IMG/VR virus record: IMGVR_UViG_3300045988_147321
Strand: one strand, 5' to 3'
Length of the DNA stretch: 64,000 nucleotides
Origin: a virus
Lineage: Duplodnaviria; Heunggongvirae; Uroviricota; Caudoviricetes
How positions within the stretch are numbered: position 1 is the first letter of the stretch; each line of letters opens with the position of its first letter. A program made the position numbers and the translations under genes. The notes below the pieces were generated by a model. It was not told where the DNA came from. It did not search any database and saw only the letters and a program-made list of their open reading frames with translations. This document shows positions 2,466-48,667 of the stretch, piece by piece.

Positions 2466-2750
2466 ATGCAGATGGAGCTAATAAGCCGCAAAGAGTTCGA
2501 TAGCCGTGTAACCAGCGGTGAACTCGACAACTTGCAGGCTATCAAGGTGAAAGAAGGCTTTTGCCTCATTGGGAATCAGAGCGGAACAAATCGCGTTTTT
2601 ATGCTTCGCCGTACGGATTTGAAGCCATTTGTCTGGAAGAACGAAATTGGTCCCAGCTCATACGCTCAAACGAGGGGGTGCCACAACCTGGCCTTTTTCT
2701 ACAAAGACGAGCTTTCTGTGGTTGATATTCAAGGGTTACAACATGTTTAA
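2466..2750 (+). CDS. uhr: Small protein upstream of hrdC
   Basis: ORF 2394-2750; internal ATG at 2466 has GGAG upstream; stop overlaps the hrdC start. Confidence 0.4.
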
Positions 2751-3648
2751 GCACTGGAAAAACATTACTATTTATAAACTTTCTCGTGAGGCGGATCTGA
2801 CCGACTTAGAAGATAAAAAGAAAATGATCCTTTTCACACCATGCGGTAGTCAGGATATGGCCAAGTTCGGTTTTGTATCTCCATTTGGTGATAATTCCGA
2901 AGTTATCGCTATGCATGGAAATGGTTTTATCCTTGTTGAAGCAAAGCGCGAAACAAAAATTCTTCCCCCGCCGGTTATCCAGCGAGCTATTCAAGAAAAA
3001 ATTGAAAAACTTGAGCAAGAACAAGCGCGTAAACTGAAGAAAACAGAGAAGGACTCCCTGAAAGACGAAGTTCTGCATTCTCTTCTGCCACGGGCTTTTT
3101 CAAAGTTTTCTGTTATCCAGGCGATCTACGACGGTTCAACTAAACGTATCTATATCAATGCCAGCGCGCGGCAGGCAGAGGATATGCTCGCGCTTATGCG
3201 TAAATCTCTGGGTTCTCTTCCTGTCGTTCCCCTAAGTGTTGAAAATCCCATTGAATTAACGCTGACCGACTGGGTACGTGATGGTAGTGCTCCACAGGGA
3301 TTTCAAATGGGGGATGCGGCAGAACTTAAGGCAGTGCTTGAGGATGGCGGTATTGCCCGAGTGAAAAAGCAGGATTTGGGAAGCGATGAAATTTCCACAC
3401 ACCTGGAAGCTGGCAAGCTCGTCACTAAGTTGGCACTCGACTGGCAGAACCGCATTAAATTTACACTGGACCATAACTTCAGCCTTACCAGCGTCAAATT
3501 TGCGGATGAATTGCTTGAGCAGAACTCTGATATTGATAGTGAAGATGTAGCGCAGCGACTGGACGCAGATTTCTTCCTGTTGACCAGTGAAATTTCGTGC
3601 CTGGTTGATGCTCTGGTAAATGCCCTTGGTGGAGAGGCTAAGCAGTGA
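2743..3648 (+). CDS. hrdC: RdgC-like recombination-associated protein
   Basis: Translation from [13 protein letters not shown] aligns along its length with E. coli RdgC ([47 protein letters not shown]). Confidence 0.8.
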
Positions 3649-5909
3649 AAGAGCTGTGCTATGGATCTGTTTGCAGTGGAATTGAAGCCGCGAGTATTGC
3701 CTGGGAACCGTTGGGTATGCGTCCGGCGTGGTTTGCTGAAATCGAGCCTTTTCCATCTGCCGTTCTTGCGCACCGCTGGCCCCATGTCGCCAACCTTGGC
3801 GACATGACAAAACTTGCCAAAAAAGTCCTGGCTGGGGAAATCGAATCCCCTGATGTGCTCGTCGGGGGAACACCTTGTCAGGCATTCAGTATCGCTGGAT
3901 TACGTGGTGGGCTTGATGATGAGCGTGGCGCGCTAACTTTAAAGTATGTGGAGCTTGCAAATGCAATTGACGACAAACGGGCTGAGTCATTTCTCAAACC
4001 GACAGTTATCGTCTGGGAAAATGTCCCAGGAGTCCTGTCATCGGCAGATAACGCCTTCGGATGTTTCCTTGCCGGATTGGCTGGAGAAGATGCGCCATTT
4101 GAACCAGGTGATCGACCTGAATCAGGAAAAAGTAACGCGTTCTGGCGGTGGGATGGCAAAACCGGTTGCCATGCTCCAAAGTGGCCGCAGTGTGGTTGTA
4201 TTTATGGACCGCAGCGAAAGGTGGCCTGGAGAATCCTTGATGCCCAATACTTCGGAGTGGCACAACGACGCCGACGCGTGTTTGTTGTCGCAAGTGCTCG
4301 AACAGACCTCGATCCCGCAACGGTACTTTTTGAGTTCGAAGGCGTGCGCCGGAATATTGCGCCGAGCCGAAAAAAGAAGGAAATCGCTTCCGCCATTATT
4401 GCAAATGGCGCTGCAATCAGTGGCGAAAGCCTAAATCCATGCCTACACGCTGACATGCCACCCGGTATGAAATCGACGAAAGCCGTAAACGCTTTCAGGA
4501 TGGCAGCATTTGGGGAATATATTGACGATGAAACCGCATCGACAGTAAAGGCAAGAGATTTTAAAGATGCCACTGACCTTGCCGTTTTTAGCAGCACAGG
4601 AGCAGGTTTTTGGTCAGAAGGGCATGGTACATTGCGGGCACGTGAGCAAGAAAGCCATGAGCATCTTGTTACATTGGCTTTTCCTGAGCGTATGAGCGGT
4701 ACACAACATGCTGCAACTAAGAATACTTCACCATCTCTAATGGCTAAAAATCCAACAGCTGTTTGCTATGAAGTAAGAAACGCAGAAGTAGCTGTCCGCC
4801 GTCTTACCCCTGTCGAATGTGAAAGGCTGCAAGGTTTTCCTGATGGGCATACGTTGATCCCGACGGAAAAGCGTAAAAAAGTTAATTCAGATGAACTGGC
4901 ATATCTTCGCAATCACTATCCAGATTTAAGCGAAGAAGAGGCCGCGATGCTTGCAGCTGACGGACCGCGTTACAAAGCGATCGGCAATAGTATGGCAATA
5001 CCAGTAATGCGCTGGATTGGCGATCGGATTACTAAGGCCGTATGTCGGCAGAAAGAAGGAAGTGAAACAAAAGAGCGAAAAGTTAAACCAGCGGCAGAAT
5101 TCGAACGGTCCATATTCAAATGGGCTGGTGGAAAATTTGGTGTTCTGGAACAAATCTTTCGCTATTTGCCAGAAGGGAAGCGCCTGATTGAACCTTTCGT
5201 TGGTGGCGGAGCTGTCTTCATGAATGCCGGATACCAGGAAAATCTGCTAAATGATGTGAATGCTGACCTGATTAACTTTTACAAGACTCTGCAACGCGAG
5301 GCGAATTCACTTATCACTCTGGCACATCGTTTCTTCCAGGACTACAACACACAGGAAGGATACCTGGCAGTACGGAATGCGTTTAACAAACAAGTCTATG
5401 ATGATTTACATCGCGCAGCGGCGTTTTTGTTCCTGAACCGACATTGTTTTAACGGATTGACGCGTTACAACCAGGCCGGTGAGTTCAATGTCGGTTATGG
5501 GAAGTATAAAACTCCGTATTTCCCATTACAGGAGATGGAAGCCTTCCTCGGTGCGGAAGGGCGGTCTGAGTTTGTATGCGGTGATTTTGCAGCGGTGATT
5601 GAAGCTGCCGGAGAAGGAGATGTTATCTTTTGCGATCCGCCGTATGAACCGCTTCCAAATACAGAGGGATTCACGAACTATTCCGGTCATGACTTTAAGT
5701 TTGAAGAGCAAAAACGCCTGGTGTCTCTGTTGACGGATGCTCATCGTCGAGGTGCAAAGGTTCTCATTACTAACAGTGGCGCGCCAAACATCAGAGAGCT
5801 TTATCATGACAGTGGCTTCAGAGTGGAACCTCTTTTTGCCAGACGTTCTGTGTCTTGTAAGGGGGACACTCGAGGTGTAGCTCATGACGTTTTGGGCATA
5901 TTGCTCTAA
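3645..5909 (+). CDS. dmt: Fused DNA methyltransferase: N-terminal C5-cytosine (Dcm-like) domain plus C-terminal N6-adenine (Dam-like) domain
   Basis: 754 aa. C5-MTase motifs [23 protein letters not shown]; Dam motifs KWAGGK and DPPY in the C-terminal third. GTG start overlaps the hrdC stop. Confidence 0.8.
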
Positions 5910-32039: not shown

Positions 32040-33233
32040 GTGACCTGGGACGATCACAAGAAGAATTTTGCTCGCCTGGCGCGAGATGGTGGTTACACCA
32101 TCGCACAGTATGCCGCCGAGTTTAATCTTAACCCTAATACTGCACGTCGTTATCTCCGTGCCTTCAAAGAAGACACCAGGACAGCGGACAGCCGCAAGCC
32201 AAATAAGCCAGTCAGGAAGCCACTAAAAAGCATGATCATTGATCACTCTAATGATCAACATGCAGGTGATCACATTGTGGCTGAAATAGCGGAAAAACAA
32301 AGGGTTAATGCCGTTGTCAGTGCCGCAGTCGAGAATGCGAAGCGCCAAAATAAGCGCATAAATGATCGTTCTGATGATCATGACGTGATCACCCGCGCCC
32401 ACCGGACCTTACGTGATCGCCTGGAACGCGACACCCTGGATGATGATGGTGAACGCTTTGAATTCGAAGCTGGCGATTACCTGATAGATAACGTTGAAGC
32501 GCGGAAGGCTGCGCGCGCTATGTTGCGTCGGTCCGGGGCCGATGTTCTGGAAACCACTCTTCTGGAAAAGTCTCTTTCTCATCTCCTTATGCTGGAGAAT
32601 GCCAGGGATACGTGTATTCGTCTGGTGCAGGAAATGCGCGATCAGCAAAAAGACGATGATGAAGGGACTCCGCCTGAATATCGTATCGCGAGCATGCTAA
32701 ACAGCTGTTCCGCGCAGATAAGCAGCCTGATCAACACCATTTACAGCATCCGGAATAACTATCGAAAAGAAAGCCGGGAGGCGGAAAAGCACGCTTTATC
32801 TATGGGGCAAGCTGGCATTGTTAAGCTGGCATACGAACGAAAGCGTGAAAATAACTGGTCAGTGCTGGAAGCAGCTGAATTCATCGAGGCGCATGGCGGA
32901 AAAGTGCCGCCCCTGATGCTGGAGCAAATCAAAGCCGATCTGCGTGCTCCTAAGACCAATACCGATGATGAGGAAAGGCAAACAGCCGTCGGTGGCCCTT
33001 CTCTTGAAGATCTGGACAAAGTTGCGCGAGAACGGGCCGCCAACCGCCGCGCCGATGCCGCATTGTGGATTGAGCAGCGTAGGGAAGAAATCGCCGATAT
33101 CGTTGATACAGGCGGTTATGGAGATGTTGATACTGAAGGTGTATCAAACGACCCATGGCTGGAACAAGACCTGGACGAAGACGAGGAGGAAGACGAAGAA
33201 GTTACCCGCAAGCTATACGGGGATGATGATTAA
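32040..33233 (+). CDS. pacA: Terminase small subunit with the pac site inside its coding sequence
   Basis: 397 aa; N-terminal HTH-like region, acidic C-terminus; size and position match P1 PacA. Confidence 0.75.
32233..32391 (+). promoter_or_regulatory. pac packaging site: 4 + 3 TGATC(A/G) hexamers carrying Dam GATC sites
   Basis: TGATCA at 32233, 32240, 32252, 32267 and TGATCG/TGATCA at 32363, 32375, 32386. Confidence 0.7.
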
Positions 33234-34717
33234 TGGCCAGAAGTTGCGTAACGGATCCACGTTGGCGCGAGCTGGTGGCGCTATATCGTTATGACTGGAT
33301 TGCTGCCGCTGATGTTTTGTTCGGCAAAACACCTACCTGGCAGCAGGATCTGATTATTGAGTCTGTGCAGGAACAGGGCAGCAAGACATCTGTTTCGTCT
33401 GGTCACGGTACCGGGAAATCAGACATGACTTCTATCATGATCATGTTGTTCATAATCATGTATCCCGGTGCCCGCGCCATTATCGTTGCGAACAAAATTC
33501 AGCAGGTAATGACCGGTATATTCAAGTACATCAAGATAAACTGGGCTACTGCCACCAGCCGTTTTCCATGGCTTGCTGATTATTTTGTTCTGACAGAAAC
33601 CGCTTTCTATGAGGTTACTGGTAAAGGTGTATGGACTGTAGTACCGAAGGGCTTTCGTCTGGGAAGTGAAGAAGCTCTCGCCGGTGAACACGCAGATCAT
33701 CTTCTGTATATTATCGATGAAGCCTCCGGTGTCAGTGATAGAGCTTTCGGTATCATCACCGGTGCTCTTACCGGACAGGATAACCGCATCTTATTACTGT
33801 CACAGCCTACACGCCCAAGCGGCTATTTCTACGATACTCACCATAAACTGGCCAAGCGTCCTGGTAACCCTGATGGCGTTTATACGGCGATCACGCTTAA
33901 CAGTGAGGAATCACCGCTGGTAACGCCAGCATTTATCAAAATGAAGCTGGCGGAGTACGGCGGGCGTGATAACCCTATGTACATGATTAAGGTACGCGGA
34001 CTATTCCCTAAATCACAGGATGGCTTCCTTCTTGGACGTGATGAGGTTGAACGTGCGACGCGGCGGAAAGTCAAGATTGCCAAAGGATGGGGCTGGCTTG
34101 CATGTGTGGACGTTGCTGGTGGTACGGGACGGGATAAGTCCGTTATCAATATCATGATGGTGTCCGGCCAGAGAAATAAACGCCGTGTAATCAACTATCG
34201 AATGCTGGAATACACAGACGTTACAGAAACGCAGCTTGCCGCCAAAATTTTCGCAGAATGTAATCCTGAGCGATTCCCAAATATCACCATAGCGATAGAC
34301 GGCGATGGGCTGGGTAAAGCAACGGCGGATCTGATGTACGAGTATTATGGTATTACCGTACAGCGTATACGCTGGGGTAAAAAGATGCATAGCCGTGAAG
34401 ATAAGAGCCTGTACTTTGATAAACGTGCTTATGCCAACGTTCAAGCCGCAGAGGCCGTAAAATCAGGTCGTATGAGACTGGATAAGGGTAATGAAACTAT
34501 TGAGGAAGCGTCGAAAATCCCTGTAGGGATTAACTCCGCCGGTCAATGGAAGGTGATGAGTAAGGAGGATATGAAGAAAAAACTCAACCTGCACTCACCA
34601 GACCATTGGGATACATATTGTTTCGCTATGCTGGCGGATTATGTTCCCCAGGATGAAGTGCTTAGCGTCGAAGAAGAAGCGCAGGTTGATGAAGCTCTGG
34701 CATGGCTTAATGAATAA
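33233..34717 (+). CDS. pacB: Terminase large subunit
   Basis: 494 aa; Walker A GHGTGKS, Walker [11 protein letters not shown]-terminal nuclease-like domain. Confidence 0.8.
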
Positions 34718-34741: not shown

Positions 34742-35593
34742 CTATTGCGCGCTTTCGGGGTTGTCGTTTACTGGCTGCCCCTTCTTAGTTTTACGGCTGC
34801 GCGTAACTGATGCGGCTGATTTGACCTTTTTCTCTTCGCGAGTGATGGCAATTTGTTTTTTTACATTTTCAATATCTGCCAGGCGATATATTTTTGCCTG
34901 CGGCCAGCGGTCGCAGATGATCGGTTCTATAGAGTCATAAAGGCTAAATTTTGCTTTCTCGAATTCACCGTTGATGATAATTCCATCACGGAGAGTTTCA
35001 TCGCAGATAAACACACCACATAGCGGCACATGGTAACTAACTGATTTACCATCATTGTAGTTAGGGCTACTAGAAATGTAATGGACGCGCAGCATTGTTT
35101 CGCTAAAGCCGTGTACGCGCATACGGAATTTTTCATCCTCCGGGTACTGCTTCATTAGCTCTTTTGTTGCTTCCAGGTTCTCTATGTATTTCGCACTGTG
35201 CTCATTGATCCCTGCGCTTTTCTGGATGCGAATGTCCTTATCAATCAGATGAATAATGCGGCCAGCGGTCATGTTGACGCTGTTCACAGCTTCTGTCTGA
35301 TAAGTCGTAACCTTACGCACACCGCGAAGGATGTTAGGCACTGGATATAAAATAGTCTTTGGGATATTGAGGTCTGGGTACTGTTCCAGTTCCCGCGCCA
35401 TTAAAGTCCATTTATCAATTTCAGCCTGAATGCTGTCAGTTTCTTTGAACGGCAGAACGACAACCGGGCGTACAGGACGACCGTCGCTGGCGGCATCAAC
35501 GTGTTGGGCGCGTGCAACAGCTTTTTTTAGAAAGAGATCCCTGAAGCTGACGAACTCCTGGTACAGTTGTTCGCCGTAGACATAATTTATCAT
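34742..35593 (-). CDS. c1: C1 repressor of lytic functions
   Basis: 283 aa starting MINYVYGEQLYQEF, matching P1 C1 as I recall it. Confidence 0.85.
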   Translation of the reverse strand: MINYVYGEQLYQEFVSFRDLFLKKAVARAQHVDAASDGRPVRPVVVLPFKETDSIQAEIDKWTLMARELEQYPDLNIPKTILYPVPNILRGVRKVTTYQTEAVNSVNMTAGRIIHLIDKDIRIQKSAGINEHSAKYIENLEATKELMKQYPEDEKFRMRVHGFSETMLRVHYISSSPNYNDGKSVSYHVPLCGVFICDETLRDGIIINGEFEKAKFSLYDSIEPIICDRWPQAKIYRLADIENVKKQIAITREEKKVKSAASVTRSRKTKKGQPVNDNPESAQ

Positions 35594-35703: not shown

Positions 35704-35913
35704 TTATTGTGAGTCTGGCTGGTTAGTGGCCATGAGATATTCGATTGTGTCAGTGAGATCATCCAGGTCGTCTTGGGTGATGCGGTACTCCTGATTGGAT
35801 ATCTTTGAGTAGTGTTCAGCAATGGCGCGGGCAGCGTCGGTTTCGGCGGGGTCTACAGATAAAGCGTTAGAGCAATGTCTAACGTCGTCGATGGTTGGTG
35901 GAATGAAAGCCAT
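35704..35913 (-). CDS. coi: C1 inactivator
   Basis: 69-aa ORF directly upstream of c1 on the same strand; size and position match P1 Coi. Confidence 0.6.
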   Translation of the reverse strand: MAFIPPTIDDVRHCSNALSVDPAETDAARAIAEHYSKISNQEYRITQDDLDDLTDTIEYLMATNQPDSQ

Positions 35914-36151
35914 AATTATGCCTCACTGTATTGACAACACAGAGCCTGAAGCTCTGACCTACTGTTTCACCCATGATCCATGCTGGGGTAATCTAACAAC
36001 ATTGCGCTGTGTGTAAGATGAGCAATGCATAGCTGTAATGCCGTTGTATAAGGTTTCCCTGTTTGCTCATTTCCTTCTGAGCCGCTCTACAACGCTGAAG
36101 ACACATTAAATAGTGAATCCAAAGTCGTATTACGAAACGGCGGCAAAACTA

Positions 36152-36168
36152 TAATTTATTAGAGCAAT
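36152..36168 (-). promoter_or_regulatory. C1 operator-like 17-mer (inverted)
   Basis: Reverse complement reads ATTGCTCTAATAAATTA, 16/17. Confidence 0.5.
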
Positions 36169-36234
36169 TGTCAAACAACTATGAAAAACAATCCAGTTTT
36201 TGGCTGGTGGAGTGGGATTTTTCTCTCAAAATTT

Positions 36235-36251
36235 ATTGCTCTAATAATTCT
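36235..36251 (+). promoter_or_regulatory. C1 operator-like 17-mer upstream of lox
   Basis: ATTGCTCTAATAATTCT, 15/17. Confidence 0.45.
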
Positions 36252-36294
36252 TGATTTTTATGCGCAGCTGGACGTAAACTCCTCTTCAGACCTA

Positions 36295-36328
36295 ATAACT
36301 TCGTATAGCATATATTATACGAAGTTAT
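36295..36328. other. lox recombination site (loxP-like, spacer variant)
   Basis: ATAACTTCGTATA-GCATATAT-TATACGAAGTTAT: perfect 13-bp inverted arms; spacer differs at one base from the canonical GCATACAT as I recall it. Confidence 0.85.
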
Positions 36329-36517
36329 CTTAAGGGTTATTGAACATGATCAATTTACCTGTAAATCCATACAGTTCAATACCTTATCAGGTCAAATAGT
36401 GATCACTTGATCATTTGATCAAGGTTGCGCTACGTAAAATCTGCGAAATGTTGGCAGTGTTAGTGCTCCAGATTTCGCGTAGCGCACTTAGCACCACCAA
36501 TCAATCAGAGGTGAAAA

Positions 36518-36739
36518 ATGGGATATTCAGCTGCTAAAGTGTCCACTCATCTTGAGCTTGAGAAAAACCGTGGTTACTGGCGGGCAAAAGGGTTTGATCG
36601 TGATAGTTGCCAACTGTCATTATCGCGCGGTGAAGAGAAAATAGAACGCACGCGCGGTCGCTGGCGTTTCTATGACGAGAACCATAAACAGGTAAAGGCA
36701 GAGCCGATCCTGTACACTTTACTTAAAACCATTATCTGA
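36518..36739 (+). CDS. cra: Small protein between lox and cre
   Basis: 73-aa ORF with GAGGTGA Shine-Dalgarno. Confidence 0.5.
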   Translation: MGYSAAKVSTHLELEKNRGYWRAKGFDRDSCQLSLSRGEEKIERTRGRWRFYDENHKQVKAEPILYTLLKTII

Positions 36740-36746
36740 GTGTTAA

Positions 36747-37778
36747 ATGTCCAATTTACTGACCGTACACCAAAATTTGCCTGCATTACCGGTCGATGCA
36801 ACGAGTGATGAGGTTCGCAAGAACCTGATGGACATGTTCAGGGATCGCCAGGCGTTTTCTGAGCATACCTGGAAAATGCTTCTGTCCGTTTGCCGGTCGT
36901 GGGCGGCATGGTGCAAGTTGAATAACCGGAAATGGTTTCCCGCAGAACCTGAAGATGTTCGCGATTATCTTCTATATCTTCAGGCGCGCGGTCTGGCAGT
37001 AAAAACTATCCAGCAACATTTGGGCCAGCTAAACATGCTTCATCGTCGGTCCGGGCTGCCACGACCAAGTGACAGCAATGCTGTTTCACTGGTCATGCGG
37101 CGGATTCGAAAAGAAAACGTTGATGCCGGTGAACGTGCAAAACAGGCATTGGCGTTCGAACGCACTGATTTCGACCAGGTTCGTTCACTCATGGAAAATA
37201 GCGATCGCTGCCAGGATATACGTAATCTGGCATTTCTTGGGATTGCTTATAATACCCTGCTACGTATAGCAGAAATTGCCAGGATCAGGGTTAAAGATAT
37301 CTCACGTACTGACGGTGGGAGAATGTTAATCCATATTGGCAGAACGAAAACGCTGGTTAGCACCGCAGGTGTAGAGAAGGCACTTAGCCTGGGGGTAACT
37401 AAACTGGTCGAGCGATGGATTTCTGTCTCTGGTGTAGCTGATGATCCGAATAACTACCTGTTTTGCCGGGTCAGAAAAAATGGTGTTGCCGCGCCATCTG
37501 CCACCAGCCAGCTATCAACTCGCGCCCTGGAAGGGATTTTTGAAGCAACTCATCGATTGATTTACGGCGCTAAGGATGACTCTGGTCAGAGATACCTGGC
37601 CTGGTCTGGACACAGTGCCCGTGTCGGAGCAGCGCGAGATATGGCCCGCGCTGGAGTTTCAATACCGGAGATCATGCAAGCTGGTGGCTGGACCAATGTA
37701 AATATTGTCATGAACTATATCCGTAACCTGGATAGTGAAACAGGGGCAATGGTGCGCCTGCTGGAAGATGGCAATTAG
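36747..37778 (+). CDS. cre: Cre tyrosine recombinase
   Basis: 343 aa, MSNLLTVHQNLPALPVDATSDEVRKNLMDMF...; essentially the familiar Cre sequence; C-terminus reads LEDGN. Confidence 0.95.
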   Translation: MSNLLTVHQNLPALPVDATSDEVRKNLMDMFRDRQAFSEHTWKMLLSVCRSWAAWCKLNNRKWFPAEPEDVRDYLLYLQARGLAVKTIQQHLGQLNMLHRRSGLPRPSDSNAVSLVMRRIRKENVDAGERAKQALAFERTDFDQVRSLMENSDRCQDIRNLAFLGIAYNTLLRIAEIARIRVKDISRTDGGRMLIHIGRTKTLVSTAGVEKALSLGVTKLVERWISVSGVADDPNNYLFCRVRKNGVAAPSATSQLSTRALEGIFEATHRLIYGAKDDSGQRYLAWSGHSARVGAARDMARAGVSIPEIMQAGGWTNVNIVMNYIRNLDSETGAMVRLLEDGN

Positions 37779-39834: not shown

Positions 39835-41139
39835 ATGAGCGAGTATATAGAAATTGCCTATGCAGCAGCTACACATAGGCTGTGCTTTCTTACAGGCACT
39901 GGATTTTCAAAGGCTGTTTCTGATGATAAAGCCCCAAGTTGGCAATCTTTATTGGAGCAACTGTGCGGTTTATTGAAGGATGGTGACTCACTCAAAGAGG
40001 AATTATTTCCTGATGGAAAAGCAAAAGACCTTAGCCTTGAAGAGGCTGCTCAGGTTATTGCACTAAAATTTATACTTTCGGGGAAAAATATTTACCAGGA
40101 GATTGAGAAAATCATAGCCTCAATCGAACTTGATCCATCAATTGAATATATTCAAGACTTTTTCAAAGAAAACACATTTAAAGTAATTACGACAAATTAT
40201 GACAAGTTAGCAGAAAAACTGGCTGGAGAGAATCGAACGTGTACAATCACCCCCGGCCTGCCAATTCCAAAATATAATTGTGAGGTTAAAGTCTACCATG
40301 TTCACGGCTCTATAGACTCCCCATCAGATATGGTTGTTACTAGCGAGGATTATTTCAGATTTATAAATGGTAATTCTTACTTTTCAAATAAACTAAGCAC
40401 AGTTCTACATGAAAACACTATTGTTATTCTTGGCTATTCTCTAAGTGACGCGAACCTCAAGGCGATTATAAATGAATATAAGGTATTTTCACGGGACAAC
40501 GTAATGTCCTCCAATATTTTCCTTATTTCCCGAGGAAAACTATTGCAACCTATTAAAGATTACTATTTTTCCTGCTTTGGGATTAGGGTTATAGATAAAA
40601 CAGAGGTGTCTGATTTCTTTAGAAAACTTAACAAGAAAATTCCAGAAGCAAAAAAAATAAAAGACAAATTGAGGCACTCAATCAAATCGGTAATAAAAAA
40701 CGGAAGAGAGTATAAAATAGAGTTCTTGAAGTTAGAGGATTCTTTTTATCATATCATTTCCTCCATTTCATCATCTGGATATAGCTGGAATGATGAAAAG
40801 GTATTAAATGTTTTTTGTGATATAATAGATAAAAAAATAGATCTTACTAAAGAGTCTGGCGCATGGGAGCAGTATGAACACCTGGCAAAATGGCTTATTT
40901 ATTTCGGTAGTTTATTTGAAGTAAAAGGAACCAACTTTGAGAAAAAATACATACATGCGGTTGAACACTCAATGACTTATATGAATAAACCTTACGAAAC
41001 AGGCTACTCATGGCGAGCATATCTAGCCTGGAAAACAAAATGGCCTTCACTGACAGCATCTAACCGCTCTCTTATTAAGAGTAAGATGGAAGAAATCCCG
41101 CTACAACAGATTCACGATATTATATCTAAGTTTATATAG
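39835..41139 (+). CDS. SIR2-domain protein (ThsA/DSR-like NADase fold) with an uncharacterised alpha-helical C-terminal domain
   Basis: 434 aa; GTGFS (21-25), TTNYD (119-123), HVHGS (155-159), ILGYSLSD (198-205) match SIR2_2-type motifs; gene is visibly AT-rich compared with its flanks. Confidence 0.7.
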   Translation: MSEYIEIAYAAATHRLCFLTGTGFSKAVSDDKAPSWQSLLEQLCGLLKDGDSLKEELFPDGKAKDLSLEEAAQVIALKFILSGKNIYQEIEKIIASIELDPSIEYIQDFFKENTFKVITTNYDKLAEKLAGENRTCTITPGLPIPKYNCEVKVYHVHGSIDSPSDMVVTSEDYFRFINGNSYFSNKLSTVLHENTIVILGYSLSDANLKAIINEYKVFSRDNVMSSNIFLISRGKLLQPIKDYYFSCFGIRVIDKTEVSDFFRKLNKKIPEAKKIKDKLRHSIKSVIKNGREYKIEFLKLEDSFYHIISSISSSGYSWNDEKVLNVFCDIIDKKIDLTKESGAWEQYEHLAKWLIYFGSLFEVKGTNFEKKYIHAVEHSMTYMNKPYETGYSWRAYLAWKTKWPSLTASNRSLIKSKMEEIPLQQIHDIISKFI

Positions 41140-41899: not shown

Positions 41900-44800
41900 T
41901 TATGCGTATTGTTGGATGACGGCCAGAACGTCCGCCACGTTGTGTTTTGTCTCGATAATCCACCAGTTACCCGGGAAATCGCTGTTCTTCGCCTTCGCTG
42001 GCAGCCAGCGAGCGCCGAATTTCGCCTTGATTGCGTCTTTCGCACGGAAAAGAACGCCTTTCATGCCTGAGGCTTCCTGAAGCCCAAATACCTCGCCAGC
42101 GGCGAATTTTGGTGCGTACATCATCTTCAGGTCGGCGGTGGATACGCGATAATTCAGACCAAGAGACTGAGCTATGCTGGTGGCATCACCCTGTATTGAT
42201 GATAACTCTTCTTGTTTCTCGTTTCTGGCGGCAATCTCTTCCTCCGTGATGTTGCCAAGGGCTAGGTTTATCCGATCAGCGTCGGCCTGTTTCTCTTCAT
42301 CGGTGCGCCCGGCAAGAACCGTGTTAATTCTCTGCAATATCTCCACATGATTCTTGCGCATGCTGAGCAATTCCGGCGTAACCTCGTTAAGATCCACCAG
42401 CCCAAGGATGGCAAGGTCGGAAAACATTGATACCAGGTTGTAGGTCATGCGATAGCTGAGTTGACCATAGGCTGATGGCAACTTCACCGCATCCATTTGA
42501 TAGGCATCCATAAATTTAGAGCCGTCGTTTACGACATCCGCTATTGCAGGTGTGATTTTCCCTGTGGTGGCGGCCTCCCTGATTGCTGTTACCCACGATT
42601 GAGTCAGCGCGGCGACTGCATGATTCAGATTGGCTTCCCGTTCTGCTGCGATGCGCGCGCTTGCTGCGTCCATTGCCTGCTCGATCTCGGCTTTATTGCT
42701 GTAAATGCCAATGGTGCCAAACTGTGCTGTGGTGATCTCATAATCTGACGCCCGGAACTCATTGGTACCGAAAATGGCATTGGTGACTTCAAGTTCAGAA
42801 TCCCCGTTACGAGTAGCCCCCTGGCTTGTTTTTTCCGGCATTCTGGCGATCGCATCCGCTATTTTCTCCTGAATTGCTTCAGGGGATAGCGTATCTCCGT
42901 ATGACGCGATTACATCGCCATAATTGGAGCCAAACAGTTCAACCAGGAATGTTTCTGCCGAACGGATCTGGCGGTTATTCCCTTCCGACATCATACCAAG
43001 CACCCATTTTGCAATTGACGACTTCAGCGCGCCGTCACGGCGATCCGGGTAAACCGCATGCTTCAGTGGGTCCGTATAGGTACCAACAAAATCGATGCTA
43101 TAGCCTGACTCTGTAGTCTGAACGCCGTATGAGTCAGTGATTTTGATCATGCCGCGCTGCTGGAAACGGTAGAAATCGTCACAGGAAATGATGTCGTTAA
43201 TCCCGGCGATGGAGACGCCACCACTGATTTTCTGCATAACAGCATCTTCATCGGGAGTTACATCAACCTGTTTATCCAGCGTCTTCACATCCCAGTTACC
43301 CGATTTGGTGCCTTTGAAGGTAAAGATGATCTCCACGTCTGCGCGCTGGCTGTCGAAGTCCAGCGACTTAATGCGAACGATATCACCGGCACAATCATAG
43401 TATTGGCCTACACGCCATGAGCGATCGCCGATAACAAGGAACTCATTCGCATGGTTAACCAGATCAGGATCAACATCCAGAATGCCTTTATTTATTGCAT
43501 CCTCCACCAGCGGGCGCAGGCGTTTGATATCCGTCGCGGCCTTCTGAGTACGGTTCAATAATTTCTCATAGCGGGAGATGGCCTGAGAGATATTAGCCTT
43601 GCGCTGAATGGCGCTTTTCAACGACGCGCGATACTGTGCTAACAACATACGGTCTGTGTGATGGACGCTACCCCAGCGGGCTTTCCAGTCTGCGTTATCA
43701 GCTGCTTTGGCCATTACCGCCTGTTTGAATTTAGCTACCTCGGCGGTGGTCTTTTCAAGTTCCGCTTTGCTTCGCTCCAATTCAGCGGTAAGTACCTCCA
43801 CATCCTCACCAGCTGCGTGCTGCGCCTTGATGTAGTTCTGAAGGTCGATAGTAGCCTGTTCTTTCTGGCGAGCGCGTTTCGCAGCTTTCGCCTTATCCAT
43901 TTGAACCTGCATCATTGCCAGACGTTCGCCGTCATCCTTCGCGGTATACATCTGCATTTCGATCATGTCATTGGCGTCGGCGTTCTCCATTTCTGACTTA
44001 TCTGAACGGAGGATATCGGAGATCCAGCCTGCTTTACGCTTCAGCGTCTTCAGTCGGTATTCATCGAAAGACCCCTTGCCGCAGTAGTAGTGAACGCGAA
44101 CGCTTGCACGGTTGGAGCCAACTCGTGCACCGCGACCGTTACGTTGTGCGATGCTGGCTGGTGTCCATGGCAACGTCAGATGATGGATGTCAGTCGTTCC
44201 TCGATGCAGGTTGATACCCACCTCTGCCTTTTTGTTGCAGATGATGATCGGAGTCCGGCCCTCCTGGAAGTCGGCTGCAATCTTTTCCAGACCGCCCAAC
44301 GACATTTCATTTTGCTGCGCGATATAGGCGTCATACAGAGCCATTTGCTCGTTGTATTTCGCTATCTGTGCATCTGTTGGTTCATCCGGTAGCTCTTTCG
44401 GCGGTTTAACCGCTTTCAGTTTCTTACCGGTTTTACCTGCCTCGGCAACCGTCTGAGCATTCAGGATCCCCACCTTTGAAGGTTCAAGGTTTAGAGCATT
44501 GCAGATAATGCGCTTGAGCTTCTGGTGCTGCGTTTTTTCATCGGTGAAGATGATTTGCTTACCTTCCGGGAAAAACTCCTTCAGCGTGGCGATCAGCTTC
44601 GCGTATTTCGGCGTAACGGGGTGAGTTACGGTCTGTTCGTCAATGCCAAACCTGGCCAGGCGCTTATTCACTTCCTGCTCGAACGCTTCCGGAACCTGCA
44701 ACTGAATAAACTCGCCCTTATCTATCAGGGAGTATTGCGATTGCTGCGTGATTGAATCATCACTGTCGTCGTCTTCGCTGGTGGCTTGTTTAGGCAAACT

Positions 44801-47800
44801 GTCCGCCAGCTGCTGCACCGCATCGGCGTACTCCGGCAGGAAACGATAGGTGATCCGGCGATAGTACAGGTCCATGTCAGTACATACGCGGTCCATATCC
44901 CTGATTATTGAGAAGATCGGACGGGCTTTCTCGTGCTCAATCACGCCGTCTTCATTGACCGAGGTCGTTACGCCATTGTTGGCTTTGGCCGCCGCTTCCG
45001 CCTGCTGACGCAATTCTTCATACGCCGCCAGTTGTTCTTCAGTAAGTGGTGCATCCTGCTGGTGTTCGTCCAGCTCCGGGATCTCCACGGTATCCTTAAC
45101 GTCTTCCGCCGTTTTAAGCGTTACCCAGCGATGGAATATACCGCGCAGCGCATCAAGGTTTTCAAAGCCCACCAGCGCCATTTTTTCTTCAACTTCACCG
45201 CTAATTTTCTGTACCGTTTCCAGCCTGGTCTTGCCGAAGAATTTAACGAAGTCATCAGGACCGTAGATCCCCATGTTCTGCCAGTATTCCTTCGGCAGAA
45301 CATGAGAAAGCATGTTGTATGCATCGATCGGGGTGTTAACGACTGGCGTTGCAGTCAGGAGAACCGGCCCGCGCCCGCCATTCTTTTTCATCAGGTACGC
45401 GTTTTTAATTGCCATATCTCGCGCCGATTGCGCCACCGCGCTGGTGGGCAGATAGGCCAGTTGTGACGCTTCGCGACCATTTTTATAGCTATTGCGGTAG
45501 TTGTGACCTTCGTCGGCGATCACACTATCGAAGCCCATATCCTCAAAGTACGGATACTTCTCTGCTTTTTCGGTGCCGGTATCTGAATACTCCGACAATA
45601 CCCGGCGACGCGCGGCCTCTTTGCGGTGGGAGTCGGAGTCCATTGCGCTGGCTACGCGCCCGGCTGCAACGAAGTCATAAAGCATATCCTGTGCATGCTC
45701 ATCTACGGTGTCATCACGTAGCGGAATGCGGGCGTATTGTTCTTTGGTAAACACGACTGCACGGTAATTTGAGTGCGGGATCGCGTTCATCCGCGCCGTG
45801 ATAGTGGCTTCATCTGCCAGCTTAAGAGCATCGCGCATAACTGGAGTGCCATCAGTACCAAGAACAGGTTTACCGTTCTCATTGAGCACCGGCACCTGGC
45901 GAATCTGATCGCCATCCATCAGCACATCAAGACCGACGAACAGGTAGTTACTGAATGCCTCTTCACTCAGGAACTCTTTTGCTTCGTAATACCAGTTTTC
46001 CAGCACTGATTTAGGCACTACATACGCAGTACGGGTGGAGCGACCGTTCTCATAGTTGAACGCCTCAAGCGCCAGCGCGGTCGTCGTTTTACCCAGCCCG
46101 GTGCCGAAGCCCAGGATGCCGCGCCCATCTTCGGACAGTCGTCTCACCTCGCTATTCTGGTAATCAAATGGCTGGCGCTTACCGCTTAATCCCTTCACCC
46201 CAAGCGGATCGCCAGAGTGTTCATACGGGATATTGCTATTGAACACATCGTTGTATTTGGCAACCAGCTCATCGTAGCGATCGTGCGTCTTGATCCACTT
46301 ATTGAACTGGTCCTCAAGCAGTGCCATCTGCTCGCGGTAGCCGTTCGCCGTCGCGCTATCTTTGCCACCGATACGCGCACCATTGAGATACTTTTCCAGC
46401 TGTGCCGGGAACCCGGTCGCGTTTTCACCCGATTTACGGTCCCACTCGTAGCGGATCTCGCCTGTTTCTTTATCCTTGCGCTGGACGACACCGTATCGGT
46501 GCCCGACGAACAGACCATCACCACCGTGATAGGTGTCAGAAACCATTTCGTCGCCTTCCAGCTGCACTGACTGCACATAGCGCAGATCCGGATAGCCGTT
46601 TTCCTGCAAAAATTCCAGAATGACGGAGCGGTCGAACCAACGGCTATTGAGCTTAAAGCGGATATTCTCTGCTGGCGTCTTGATGCGCTTCTCTTCGATC
46701 GCTGCCAGCTGATTAAGGACGTTGTTCTTTACTGGACCGTCGGGGAGTGTGGCAAGGAATTCCTGTTTTGGTGCCACTATCTCGTTAATGTCGCCGCTGG
46801 TGGCGCGGGCGAACGGAACAATCCCGCCATACGGTGAAACCGCAATGCCAGGGGTGCTGGCCAATAAATTAAGCAACTCGTCATCACTGGCTGGCAGTTC
46901 GCCGGTAAACGCAAGGCGGAAATCATCGAGCTGGATTGGATCGCGAGTGAGATCACTGTAGAGATAACGCAGGGTGTCCTGATAGCTGGTGGAGTCATAA
47001 CTGGCGCTGGAATCATGCGTAACCAGTTTTCCTGTCAGCTCGTCAGAAATAGTGCCATCCAGCTTAATTGCACCACGGAAAGCAAACCAGGCGCGCGCAC
47101 CGCTCCCCGATAATTTCGCTATCGGACCGCGACCGGGGTTACCAAAACGGTCAATCTCTGCCTGCAAACGGGATACCAGAGAAAGGCGCTGCTGTTCGAT
47201 TTGTTCAGCACTATGCCCGGCGGCCTTCATGTCCTGATATTCAATTAACATCCGGCCAATCATCGCCCCGCGATACAAGCGTTCACGGTATTTTTCAGGC
47301 TGGCTGTTAATCCAGTCCACCAGCTGCACCATATCGTCGCTGATTGATGTGGTGTACTTATCGCGGACATTTGCCATCTGGGTAAATGTCATACCGAGAC
47401 GGCCTTCTGTTGTAGTCAGGTTTCGCTGAAGAGCCTCCCAGCTGTCCGCGCCATAACTGGCAACATCAATCTTCAGCTCCTTCCCTGCATCAGATTCAAT
47501 CCAGCGACCACCAGCATATTTTTGCCATACGCCATTAATCAGGCGCATTTCCCCTTCATCAACAACATCTGCGGTCGGTGACGGTTCAGCCATATCGAGC
47601 AAAGACCAGTCGATACGACTTTCGAAACGATGAATCAGCTTCGCTTTAAGAGCCTGGTTATCAATCTGCCCGTCGGCACGAACCTCAATACGCCCCTGGA
47701 AGCCCTTTTCCTGGGTACCATGAACAAACCGGCGGCCGTCCTTTTCAAACCACTTGCCAGAAATAAACGTTGGCCAAAGCACATTTGCCGATTCAAGAGT

Positions 47801-48667
47801 GCTTTCATCCACCAGGGGGATTTTCTCAGCCATCTCTGCCGGATGTTTGCGCATCAGCACCACATCTACGACCGTACTGGTCCCGTTTGCGTCAAAAGTA
47901 CCGGTAGGCAAGCGGTGAGCGCCAAGAAATTCAGCTTTACGGGATAGGCGCAGGCGCAACCGCTTCATGTTTGAACCTGAAACAATGGACGGCGGCACAA
48001 TCACACACATGAATCCGCCTGGCTTTATCTTGTCCAGCATGCGGAGCATGAAGTAAGACCCCATGTCCGTTTCTTCTGCGTAAGGCTTATCGATGTTGCG
48101 TGTGTTATCACGACCGCCGAACGGAACGTTACCCACAACATGGTCGAATGAATCGTTAGGCGTGCTTACAGCCAGTTGTTCGAACGGGGAAATCTGTACG
48201 CTGTCTTCCGGATGTAACAGCTGGTTTATACGACCGGAAACACTGCTGATCTCAGTCGCGGTCATCACCGTACCAACCGGTTTTGTCTCATTAAAAACGC
48301 CGGTGCCCGCCGATGGTTCCAGAGTGTTACCTACGTCCGCACCGTAGAGCTTCATGATCTCCCAGACACCTTCAGCGATCGGCTTTGGTGTGTAATATTC
48401 GGAGACGGACCCGCCAATGCCGCCTTCACCAGTGTACCCGGCCAGGATCTGGCGCTGTTCATCTGTCAGTGTCGCGCCGTCCACCAGCGAATTAAGCAAA
48501 TCTATCGCCTTCTGATTCGCCTCCCGGCGCAGTCGGTCATAGCTTTTGCCTTCCACCTTTTCCACGCCGTATTTAATCGGCGCTCGGTGAGATGTTATTG
48601 CCCTAATGTATTTCAATATTTCGCTGACACTTGAACAGCGAAACACACCCATAGATAGCTTGTTCAT
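41900..48667 (-). CDS. darB: Giant antirestriction protein with N6-adenine methyltransferase and DExH helicase domains
   Basis: 2255 aa; MTase motif GNVPFGG, helicase Walker A GFGTGLGKTT and DEGH box; size matches P1 DarB. Confidence 0.85.
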   Translation of the reverse strand: MNKLSMGVFRCSSVSEILKYIRAITSHRAPIKYGVEKVEGKSYDRLRREANQKAIDLLNSLVDGATLTDEQRQILAGYTGEGGIGGSVSEYYTPKPIAEGVWEIMKLYGADVGNTLEPSAGTGVFNETKPVGTVMTATEISSVSGRINQLLHPEDSVQISPFEQLAVSTPNDSFDHVVGNVPFGGRDNTRNIDKPYAEETDMGSYFMLRMLDKIKPGGFMCVIVPPSIVSGSNMKRLRLRLSRKAEFLGAHRLPTGTFDANGTSTVVDVVLMRKHPAEMAEKIPLVDESTLESANVLWPTFISGKWFEKDGRRFVHGTQEKGFQGRIEVRADGQIDNQALKAKLIHRFESRIDWSLLDMAEPSPTADVVDEGEMRLINGVWQKYAGGRWIESDAGKELKIDVASYGADSWEALQRNLTTTEGRLGMTFTQMANVRDKYTTSISDDMVQLVDWINSQPEKYRERLYRGAMIGRMLIEYQDMKAAGHSAEQIEQQRLSLVSRLQAEIDRFGNPGRGPIAKLSGSGARAWFAFRGAIKLDGTISDELTGKLVTHDSSASYDSTSYQDTLRYLYSDLTRDPIQLDDFRLAFTGELPASDDELLNLLASTPGIAVSPYGGIVPFARATSGDINEIVAPKQEFLATLPDGPVKNNVLNQLAAIEEKRIKTPAENIRFKLNSRWFDRSVILEFLQENGYPDLRYVQSVQLEGDEMVSDTYHGGDGLFVGHRYGVVQRKDKETGEIRYEWDRKSGENATGFPAQLEKYLNGARIGGKDSATANGYREQMALLEDQFNKWIKTHDRYDELVAKYNDVFNSNIPYEHSGDPLGVKGLSGKRQPFDYQNSEVRRLSEDGRGILGFGTGLGKTTTALALEAFNYENGRSTRTAYVVPKSVLENWYYEAKEFLSEEAFSNYLFVGLDVLMDGDQIRQVPVLNENGKPVLGTDGTPVMRDALKLADEATITARMNAIPHSNYRAVVFTKEQYARIPLRDDTVDEHAQDMLYDFVAAGRVASAMDSDSHRKEAARRRVLSEYSDTGTEKAEKYPYFEDMGFDSVIADEGHNYRNSYKNGREASQLAYLPTSAVAQSARDMAIKNAYLMKKNGGRGPVLLTATPVVNTPIDAYNMLSHVLPKEYWQNMGIYGPDDFVKFFGKTRLETVQKISGEVEEKMALVGFENLDALRGIFHRWVTLKTAEDVKDTVEIPELDEHQQDAPLTEEQLAAYEELRQQAEAAAKANNGVTTSVNEDGVIEHEKARPIFSIIRDMDRVCTDMDLYYRRITYRFLPEYADAVQQLADSLPKQATSEDDDSDDSITQQSQYSLIDKGEFIQLQVPEAFEQEVNKRLARFGIDEQTVTHPVTPKYAKLIATLKEFFPEGKQIIFTDEKTQHQKLKRIICNALNLEPSKVGILNAQTVAEAGKTGKKLKAVKPPKELPDEPTDAQIAKYNEQMALYDAYIAQQNEMSLGGLEKIAADFQEGRTPIIICNKKAEVGINLHRGTTDIHHLTLPWTPASIAQRNGRGARVGSNRASVRVHYYCGKGSFDEYRLKTLKRKAGWISDILRSDKSEMENADANDMIEMQMYTAKDDGERLAMMQVQMDKAKAAKRARQKEQATIDLQNYIKAQHAAGEDVEVLTAELERSKAELEKTTAEVAKFKQAVMAKAADNADWKARWGSVHHTDRMLLAQYRASLKSAIQRKANISQAISRYEKLLNRTQKAATDIKRLRPLVEDAINKGILDVDPDLVNHANEFLVIGDRSWRVGQYYDCAGDIVRIKSLDFDSQRADVEIIFTFKGTKSGNWDVKTLDKQVDVTPDEDAVMQKISGGVSIAGINDIISCDDFYRFQQRGMIKITDSYGVQTTESGYSIDFVGTYTDPLKHAVYPDRRDGALKSSIAKWVLGMMSEGNNRQIRSAETFLVELFGSNYGDVIASYGDTLSPEAIQEKIADAIARMPEKTSQGATRNGDSELEVTNAIFGTNEFRASDYEITTAQFGTIGIYSNKAEIEQAMDAASARIAAEREANLNHAVAALTQSWVTAIREAATTGKITPAIADVVNDGSKFMDAYQMDAVKLPSAYGQLSYRMTYNLVSMFSDLAILGLVDLNEVTPELLSMRKNHVEILQRINTVLAGRTDEEKQADADRINLALGNITEEEIAARNEKQEELSSIQGDATSIAQSLGLNYRVSTADLKMMYAPKFAAGEVFGLQEASGMKGVLFRAKDAIKAKFGARWLPAKAKNSDFPGNWWIIETKHNVADVLAVIQQYA

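What the first reader, a model, noticed from the sequence alone, without database searches (positions are those of the whole stretch)
36295..36328. lox site with a one-base change in the 8-bp spacer
The site reads ATAACTTCGTATA-GCATATAT-TATACGAAGTTAT. The 13-bp arms are perfect, but the spacer has T where the canonical loxP spacer (GCATACAT as I recall it) has C, at position 36313. Spacer identity controls which lox sites can recombine with each other, so this site would be poorly compatible with canonical loxP. The adjacent Cre is otherwise the familiar sequence, with an Asn as its last residue.
Basis: partly seen in the sequence, partly recalled or inferred. Interest (0 to 1): 0.5.

Follow-up and report, generated by a model that had tools for sequence, protein, structure and literature searches.

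The report
Rare natural loxP spacer allele
A P1-like phage-plasmid carries a genuine Cre recombination site that differs from textbook loxP by one spacer base; the allele is rare but real, probably works normally with copies of itself, and matters mainly as a small natural example of the "incompatible lox" variants that engineers build on purpose.

Summary
Window 36295-36328 reads ATAACTTCGTATA-GCATATAT-TATACGAAGTTAT, with perfect 13-bp arms. T at 36313 replaces the C of reference P1, P7 and phiW39 loxP (G3>A in the usual ATGTATGC numbering).

The element is a P1-like phage-plasmid with the usual gene order (pacAB, c1, coi, imc, lox, cra, cre, c8, ref, mat). Its Cre equals P1 Cre except D343N, which is a very common natural allele.

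lox is strongly conserved: 678 of 698 lox-bearing complete E. coli records are canonical at all 34 bp. The T allele is rare but not unique. Four complete plasmids from Switzerland and Ecuador carry it.

The five carriers fall on four different lox-cre haplotypes, and each is closer to canonical-lox relatives than to the other carriers. The window's haplotype matches six canonical contigs over 1640 bp except at this one base. This indicates a recurrent G:C>A:T transition, or an exchange confined to the site itself.

A second spacer C>T allele, identical to engineered lox511, occurs naturally in five plasmids on three haplotypes.

The best reading is a near-neutral allele. P1's Cre reactions pair identical copies, so function is kept, while recombination with canonical loxP should be reduced. 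Interest is low to moderate.

The parts
36295..36328 (+). lox site: two perfect 13-bp inverted repeats around an 8-bp spacer. The + strand corresponds to the conventional 'bottom strand' of loxP.
   Evidence: unique in the window, 0 expected by chance. It occupies the position of the annotated lox site in P1 X03453, P7 and phiW39.
36295..36307 (+). Cre-binding arm ATAACTTCGTATA on the side away from cre (the conventional right recombinase-binding element, read on the bottom strand)
   Evidence: identical to the reference.
36308..36315 (+). 8-bp spacer GCATATAT (canonical GCATACAT). It is still asymmetric; its reverse complement is ATATATGC.
36313..36313 (+). The variant base: T instead of C (G3>A in ATGTATGC numbering; G2'>A in the numbering of PMC11260471). 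It lies inside the 6-bp strand-exchange region.
   Evidence: C in all 113 sequences lacking this allele, T in 5. The crossover region is positions 2-7 according to PMC1479339.
36316..36328 (+). Cre-binding arm TATACGAAGTTAT on the cre side
36518..36739 (+). cra (73 aa, Cre-associated ORF)
   Evidence: It matches the position and length of the annotated cra in P7 and phiW39.
36747..37778 (+). cre, a 343-aa tyrosine recombinase; identical to P1 Cre except D343N
   Evidence: Pfam Phage_integrase, E = 8.9e-33; exact protein is widespread.
36400..36421 (+). Three TGATCA (Dam) sites between lox and cra, in the region where X03453 annotates cre promoter pR1
   Evidence: The promoter assignment is carried over from the X03453 annotation and was not tested here; the simple consensus scan found no promoter.
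32233..32391 (+). pac-like cluster of 4 + 3 TGATCR hexamers inside pacA, about 4 kb upstream of lox. It is context for Cre-lox cyclization of terminally redundant virion DNA.
   Evidence: That this is the P1 pac arrangement rests on established P1 biology (my own knowledge).

Best explanation
This is a functional lox site of a P1-like phage-plasmid that carries a rare, naturally recurring, near-neutral spacer allele produced by a G:C>A:T transition. In the P1 life cycle, Cre acts on two copies of the element's own lox site. It circularizes terminally redundant infecting DNA and resolves plasmid dimers before partition. Both partners therefore always carry the same spacer, so a spacer change that Cre tolerates in matched pairs costs the element little. 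A side-effect is that Cre-mediated exchange with canonical-loxP elements should be reduced, because the mismatch lies inside the 6-bp strand-exchange region. Site directionality should be retained: in the wrong-way alignment the crossover region (TATATG against CATATA) still mismatches at positions 2 and 7. Shown here: the sequence, its rarity, its presence in other independent assemblies, its spread over several haplotypes, the intact ordinary cre, and the P1 context. Inferred: self-compatibility, reduced cross-compatibility, retained directionality, and neutrality.
For: The site and context are real. lox is under strong constraint: 678 of 698 E. coli records are canonical at all 34 bp, 41 of 41 metagenome P1-context sites are canonical, and 84 of 87 IMG/VR P1-context sites are canonical. 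Surviving variants are therefore likely to be tolerated ones. The T allele is heritable rather than a one-off: four complete plasmids carry it, including two near-identical haplotypes (2 differences in 1640 bp) from Switzerland and Ecuador. It is not tied to any Cre change. The window's lox-cre haplotype equals six canonical contigs except at this base, so the change is recent on this lineage. The carriers span four haplotypes, with distinguishing SNPs 1-7 bp from the site. A second spacer C>T allele (GTATACAT) recurs in the same way on three haplotypes. Literature: 84% of 6000 matched non-canonical spacer pairs recombine efficiently, transitions are tolerated better than transversions, and the sensitive positions are A4', G3 and C4, not G2' (PMC11260471). 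[quoted passage not shown] Mismatches at crossover positions lower heterologous recombination (PMC1479339 summarising Lee & Saito 1998; PMC10850332).
Against: No recombination assay exists for this exact allele in the papers I could read. Lee & Saito 1998, which tested all 24 single substitutions, is not held in the library. Hoersten et al. show that spacer identity does not guarantee efficiency, since 16% of matched pairs are poor. The near-invariance of the spacer in nature could mean that even this change carries a cost. The new run of A/T pairs (TATA + ATATAT) could alter DNA bending and the order of strand exchange; this was not tested. Reads could not be inspected, so an error in this particular assembly is not excluded.
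Confidence: 0.7

Rival explanations
1. Sequencing or assembly error: the true base in this element is C, and the site is ordinary loxP.
For: The T is a singleton on a haplotype that is otherwise identical over 1640 bp to six canonical contigs. All 10 contigs that carry the same Cre are canonical. Reads cannot be checked with these tools.
Against: The same allele occurs in four independent complete plasmid assemblies from different groups and countries, two of them on an almost identical haplotype, so the allele is biologically viable. The context is not a homopolymer or a Dam/Dcm motif. A recent real mutation predicts the same singleton pattern.
Confidence: 0.12
2. Selected heterospecificity: the spacer change is favoured because it isolates this lineage from Cre-mediated cointegration or marker exchange with co-infecting canonical-lox P1-like elements. 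It would be a natural 'lox compatibility group'.
For: The same two spacer alleles (GCATATAT and GTATACAT) recur on several haplotypes and make up 9 of 16 single-mismatch alleles in E. coli genomes. Both lie in the crossover region, where mismatches reduce cross-reaction (PMC1479339, PMC10850332).
Against: Each allele is at about 0.6-0.7% frequency, with no sign of a sweep or an expanding clade. The spacer has only three G:C pairs, and G:C>A:T is the commonest spontaneous change, so mutation bias plus a tolerance filter is enough to explain the pattern. An arm C>T variant also recurs, and heterospecificity does not explain that.
Confidence: 0.1
3. Decay: the change cripples lox, and Cre-lox is no longer functional in this plasmid.
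For: The spacer is almost invariant in nature, and some matched spacers are recombined poorly (PMC11260471).
Against: Both arms are perfect. cre is intact and identical to the common allele, cra is present as an intact ORF, and the Dam-site cluster of the cre promoter region is present. The change is a transition at a position not flagged as sensitive (PMC11260471). The allele persists in a lineage sampled on two continents.
Confidence: 0.05

Closest known systems
loxP of bacteriophage P1 (X03453; also P7, phiW39) with Cre
   Same: The 13-bp arms are identical, the spacer is 8 bp, and the site has the same position and orientation upstream of cra-cre in the c1-coi-imc-lox-cra-cre-c8-ref block. 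Cre is 342/343 identical.
   Different: One spacer base differs: GCATATAT against GCATACAT (T for C at 36313).
Engineered heterospecific lox sites: the Lee & Saito 1998 single and double spacer substitutions, lox511 (ATGTATAC), lox5171, lox2272
   Same: It is a substitution inside the 6-bp crossover region with wild-type arms. Like lox511, it is a single G>A transition on the top strand. The expected behaviour is self-recombination with a reduced reaction with loxP (PMC1479339, PMC5534112, PMC2018622).
   Different: The position differs: top-strand position 3, not 7 (lox511) or 2+7 (lox2272). It arose naturally rather than by design. Its recombination properties were not available to me.
Natural lox511-equivalent allele (GTATACAT) in five complete E. 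coli P1-like plasmids, e.g. NZ_CP019262.1 and NZ_CP089136.1
   Same: It is a rare natural C>T change at the other cytosine of the same spacer strand, and it also sits on several haplotypes.
   Different: A different spacer position; it is not present in this window.

Membership tests
Cre/lox site of P1-like phages (lox site in the broad sense) | Two 13-bp inverted repeats ATAACTTCGTATA / TATACGAAGTTAT | tested here: met
   26/26 arm bases match; unique in the window; 0 expected by chance.
Cre/lox site of P1-like phages (lox site in the broad sense) | An 8-bp asymmetric spacer between the arms | tested here: met
   GCATATAT has reverse complement ATATATGC, so it is not self-complementary. The central four bases ATAT are now palindromic, compared with TA in loxP.
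Cre/lox site of P1-like phages (lox site in the broad sense) | An adjacent cre gene encoding a tyrosine recombinase, in the P1 immC/cre context | tested here: met
Cre/lox site of P1-like phages (lox site in the broad sense) | Recombined by Cre | not testable with these tools
   Inferred only from studies of other spacer variants (PMC11260471, PMC2018622).
loxP in the strict sense (the P1 reference sequence) | 34/34 identity, including the spacer GCATACAT / ATGTATGC | tested here: not met
   33/34; T for C at 36313.
Heterospecific (mutually exclusive) lox variants | A spacer substitution within crossover positions 2-7 with wild-type arms | tested here: met
   The change is at top-strand position 3 (positions as defined in PMC1479339).
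Heterospecific (mutually exclusive) lox variants | Efficient recombination with an identical partner and little or none with loxP | not testable with these tools
   No data for this allele in the accessible papers. General trends support a reduced but possibly leaky cross-reaction.
Heterospecific (mutually exclusive) lox variants | Identity to a named engineered site (lox511, lox2272, lox5171) | tested here: not met
   The spacer ATATATGC differs from ATGTATAC, AAGTATCC (sequence given in PMC5534112) and ATGTGTAC. The lox511 and lox5171 sequences are from my own knowledge.

The most novel reading that the evidence does not exclude
Natural P1-like phage-plasmids repeatedly generate heterospecific lox alleles through strand-biased C>T changes at the lox site. 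All three recurrent alleles seen here (spacer C6>T, spacer C2>T which equals lox511, and arm C5>T) are C>T on the cre-sense strand. These alleles could split the population into partly recombination-isolated 'lox compatibility groups', limiting Cre-mediated cointegration and exchange between co-infecting elements.
Probability: 0.12. Interest if true: 0.45.

Novelty: new member of a known kind. Interest (0 to 1): 0.25.

Why it matters
The practical stakes are small. Tools that detect P1-like elements or vector contamination by exact loxP matching will miss such alleles. Anyone moving this plasmid's lox or Cre into engineered strains should not assume compatibility with laboratory loxP. Conceptually, it shows that the heterospecific spacer variants invented for genome engineering, including a lox511 equivalent, already exist at about 0.5% frequency in wild P1-like plasmids. 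It also shows that the natural lox site, although about 97% invariant, has a few recurrent escape positions. That offers a modest natural experiment on which spacer changes Cre-lox tolerates in its real job. I found no description of natural lox spacer polymorphism in the searchable literature.

Tried and rejected
1. Megablast census with a 56-nt query centred on the site. It returned no full-length exact match, and I nearly concluded the allele was unique. That was an artefact: with the variant base in the middle, seeding depended on a 31-nt right flank, and carriers with other flank alleles were missed. A word-11 blastn with the bare 34-mer found four carriers.

2. Exact 34-mer scan of metagenome contigs: 0 hits. 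A P1-context scan gave 41 of 41 canonical sites.

It was dominated by loxP sites inside scaffolds of unrelated taxa (most likely library-adaptor artefacts), so it was of little use as a natural census.

4. Full-text searches for the spacer strings ATATATGC or GCATATAT together with loxP returned only primers and unrelated sequences. The supplements of Hoersten et al. are not held, and Hoess 1986 is not held.

5. Co-variation between the T allele and Cre residues: rejected, because no substitution is shared.

6. The idea that the change alters hairpin or cruciform stability: rejected. All alleles fold into the same 13-bp stem and 8-nt loop at -9.5 kcal/mol.

7. The idea that the change creates or destroys a consensus promoter: the simple scan found none in 35900-36800.

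8. A single-clade origin of the T allele: rejected for the lox-cre region.

9. In the notebook I wrongly described GCATGCAT (L069) as palindromic. This is corrected: its reverse complement is ATGCATGC.

Full report
**Observation.** Window 36295-36328 on the + strand reads ATAACTTCGTATA GCATATAT TATACGAAGTTAT. It is the only match in the 64-kb window to the lox arm pattern even with three mismatches allowed, and none is expected by chance. The spacer occupies 36308-36315, and the base in question is T at 36313. The + strand here corresponds to the conventional bottom strand of loxP, whose spacer is 5'-GCATACAT-3' (PMC8860596). In the usual top-strand numbering (ATGTATGC) the change is G3>A. In the numbering of Hoersten et al. 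it is G2'>A.

**Context.** The window is a P1-like phage-plasmid.
- Around the site lie pacA and pacB (32040-34717), c1 (34742-35593, minus strand), small coi/imc ORFs, lox, cra (36518-36739), cre (36747-37778), c8, ref and mat. Contigs carrying the same Cre show the same gene order, and the annotated immC regions of P7 and phiW39 match it from coi to c8.
- A 4 + 3 cluster of TGATCR hexamers inside pacA (32233-32391) has the P1 pac arrangement, about 4 kb from lox. Three TGATCA sites lie at 36400-36421, in the region where X03453 annotates the cre promoter pR1.
- Over 20 kb the window is 98.6-98.9% identical to the closest deposited E. coli plasmids that match nearly all of it, so it is not one of them.
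- Cre is a tyrosine recombinase (Pfam Phage_integrase, E = 8.9e-33). It differs from P1 Cre only by D343N.
- That exact protein is listed in 3602 blocks of the public collection, and all ten contigs read that carry it have the canonical spacer. The terminal Asn is therefore an ordinary natural allele.

**Comparison with the reference.** P1 (X03453, loxP annotated at 35-68), P7 and phiW39 all have GCATACAT.

**How rare is the allele?**
- My first census used megablast with a 56-nt query and returned no exact full-length match in PLSDB, the complete E. coli genomes or the phage collection. This was misleading, because seeding depended on the right flank.
- A word-11 search with the bare 34-mer found four complete E. 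coli plasmids with exactly this site: NZ_CP100527.1 (chicken, Switzerland), NZ_CP145664.1 (human, Switzerland), NZ_AP027698.1 and NZ_AP027620.1 (human, Ecuador).
- With the canonical 34-mer under the same settings, 698 E. coli records carry lox. Of these, 678 are canonical at all 34 positions, 16 differ at one base, three at two bases, and one more.
- Elsewhere the T allele was absent: 0 of 14 phage records, 0 of 87 P1-context sites in IMG/VR (84 canonical), 0 exact hits in metagenome contigs, and 41 of 41 P1-context metagenome sites canonical.
- A flank-anchored scan that did not require perfect arms found 68 of 70 sites with perfect arms.
- lox is thus about 97% invariant in nature, and the T allele sits at roughly 0.5%.

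**Origin.**
- Over 1640 bp (-150 to +1490 from the start of lox) the window differs from six canonical-spacer contigs by exactly one base, the spacer T. The four other carriers are 36-49 differences from the window.
- The carriers form four haplotypes: the window; L273; L274/L276, which differ by 2 bases although sampled on two continents; and L275. For each haplotype the nearest canonical relative is closer (1, 22, 10 and 13 differences) than any carrier on a different haplotype (36-59).
- SNPs that distinguish the carriers lie within 1-7 bp of the site, at 36294, 36291, 36287 and 36329.
- The allele therefore either arose several times, or moved between backgrounds by an exchange confined to the site itself. 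A rare Cre-mediated crossover with heteroduplex repair could do that. I cannot separate these two possibilities.
- No Cre substitution is shared among the carriers.

**A related test.**
- If spacer C>T changes are favoured, the other cytosine on this strand should also be hit, which would give GTATACAT, the sequence of engineered lox511. Five complete E. coli plasmids carry exactly that site, on three haplotypes.
- Nine of the 16 single-mismatch alleles in E. coli genomes are therefore C>T at the two spacer cytosines of the cre-sense strand.
- An arm variant (C5>T, ATAATTTCG...) was also seen twice (L281, L282).
- The spacer contains only three G:C pairs, and G:C>A:T is the commonest spontaneous change. 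Mutation bias plus a tolerance filter is therefore a sufficient explanation. A strand-specific hotspot is possible but unproven.
- As single strands, all alleles fold into the same hairpin with a 13-bp stem and the spacer in an 8-nt loop, at -9.5 kcal/mol. The change does not alter hairpin potential.

**Likely function.** In P1, Cre-lox circularizes terminally redundant infecting DNA and resolves plasmid dimers (established P1 biology; my own knowledge). Both reactions pair two copies of the same element's lox, so the spacers always match.
- Matched pairs: 84% of 6000 non-canonical spacers recombined efficiently when matched. Transitions were tolerated better than transversions, and the sensitive positions were A4', G3 and C4, not G2' (PMC11260471). 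[quoted passage not shown] I therefore infer that this site works with itself.
- Cross with canonical loxP: the mismatch falls inside crossover positions 2-7. Lee & Saito's single-substitution series, as summarised in PMC1479339, found homology at positions 2-5 and 6-7 to be needed. Mismatches at positions 2 or 3 lowered cross-reactivity among loxPsym variants. However, sites with A at position 1, as here, were leakier, at about 10% for one position-3 pair (PMC10850332). A pair mismatched at one position reached 22% in vitro (PMC2018622). I therefore expect reduced but not absent recombination with canonical loxP.
- Directionality: it should persist. In the wrong-way alignment the crossover region TATATG faces CATATA, which still mismatches at positions 2 and 7. 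The literature singles out these two positions as the most effective at blocking recombination (PMC1479339). This is inference from the sequence.
- Strand-exchange order: Cre preferentially cleaves the bottom strand first, at the GC end of the spacer (PMC8860596). The variant base lies at the opposite end of the crossover region. The longer A/T run it creates might influence bending or the order of exchange; this is untested.

**Rivals.**
- An error in this assembly cannot be excluded without reads. The singleton pattern fits either an error or a recent mutation. However, the allele is clearly viable and heritable in other plasmids.
- Selected heterospecificity is possible but unnecessary, given the low frequencies and the mutation-bias explanation.
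- Functional decay is unlikely, given the perfect arms, the intact common cre, and a tolerated type of change.

**Verdict.** The thing itself is a rare natural allele of a very well-known site. It is a new member of a known kind, of low to moderate interest. The small bonus is that wild P1-like plasmids already contain heterospecific lox alleles, including a lox511 equivalent.

Noticed in passing
L283-L287 (NZ_CP019262.1, NZ_CP089136.1, NZ_AP027761.1, NZ_AP027749.1, NZ_JBXSFB010000005.1), lox at locus position 1701-1734: Five complete E. coli P1-like plasmids carry the spacer GTATACAT (= ATGTATAC), which is identical to the engineered lox511 site. They fall on three different lox-cre haplotypes.
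   Followed up: partly
L281 (IMG/VR) and L282 (NZ_CP060916.1, lox at 201-234): A recurrent arm variant, ATAATTTCGTATA (C5>T in the arm distal to cre), with a canonical spacer. Like the two spacer alleles, it is a C>T on the cre-sense strand.
   Followed up: partly
L034, L069, L077, L092 (IMG/VR contigs): Other natural spacer variants were each seen once: GCGAACAT, GCATGCAT and GCGTTCAT in P1 context, and ATGTGTGT in a different flank context. L280 has a site with two changes at the end of the cre-side arm.
   Followed up: no
L102-L221 (genome-contig hits, e.g. Gemmata sp. IIL30, Candidatus Paracaedibacter symbiosus, Legionella tunisiensis, Sediminibacterium salmoneum); also Lactococcus phage Q33 JX564242.1 17548-17581: Perfect-arm lox sites (Q33: a single mismatch to the variant query, consistent with canonical loxP) sit inside scaffolds of unrelated bacteria, often many per assembly. 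Most have the canonical spacer; a few do not, including the symmetric ATGTACAT. One lies inside the portal gene of a Lactococcus phage record. These are most likely leftovers of Cre-lox circularization adaptors from paired-end library construction, not biology.
   Followed up: no
window 39835-41139 (+) and 41900-48667 (-): Downstream of ref/mat, where my recollection of the P1 map places the EcoP1 res/mod genes, this element has a 434-aa SIR2-family gene (Pfam SIR2_2; best PADLOC hits PDC-S25 and the ThsA SIR2 domain). It is followed by a 2255-aa methylase-helicase protein that I take to be DarB-like. About 230 E. coli genomes match most of this 20-kb region.
   Followed up: partly
L273 and L275 (locus 2607-3757) and L284 (307-1457): An ISKpn26 (IS5-family) insertion lies at the same place just upstream of lox in two T-allele plasmids and in one lox511-like plasmid, even though their lox-cre haplotypes differ.
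   Followed up: no
L027 (IMGVR_UViG_2873012545_000001), 4673-4877: Three perfect-arm lox sites occur within about 200 bp on one viral contig. This may be an engineered construct or an assembly artefact.
   Followed up: no
window 36181-36333 (+): A 50-aa ORF runs across the lox site. No homolog search was done and it is probably spurious.
   Followed up: no
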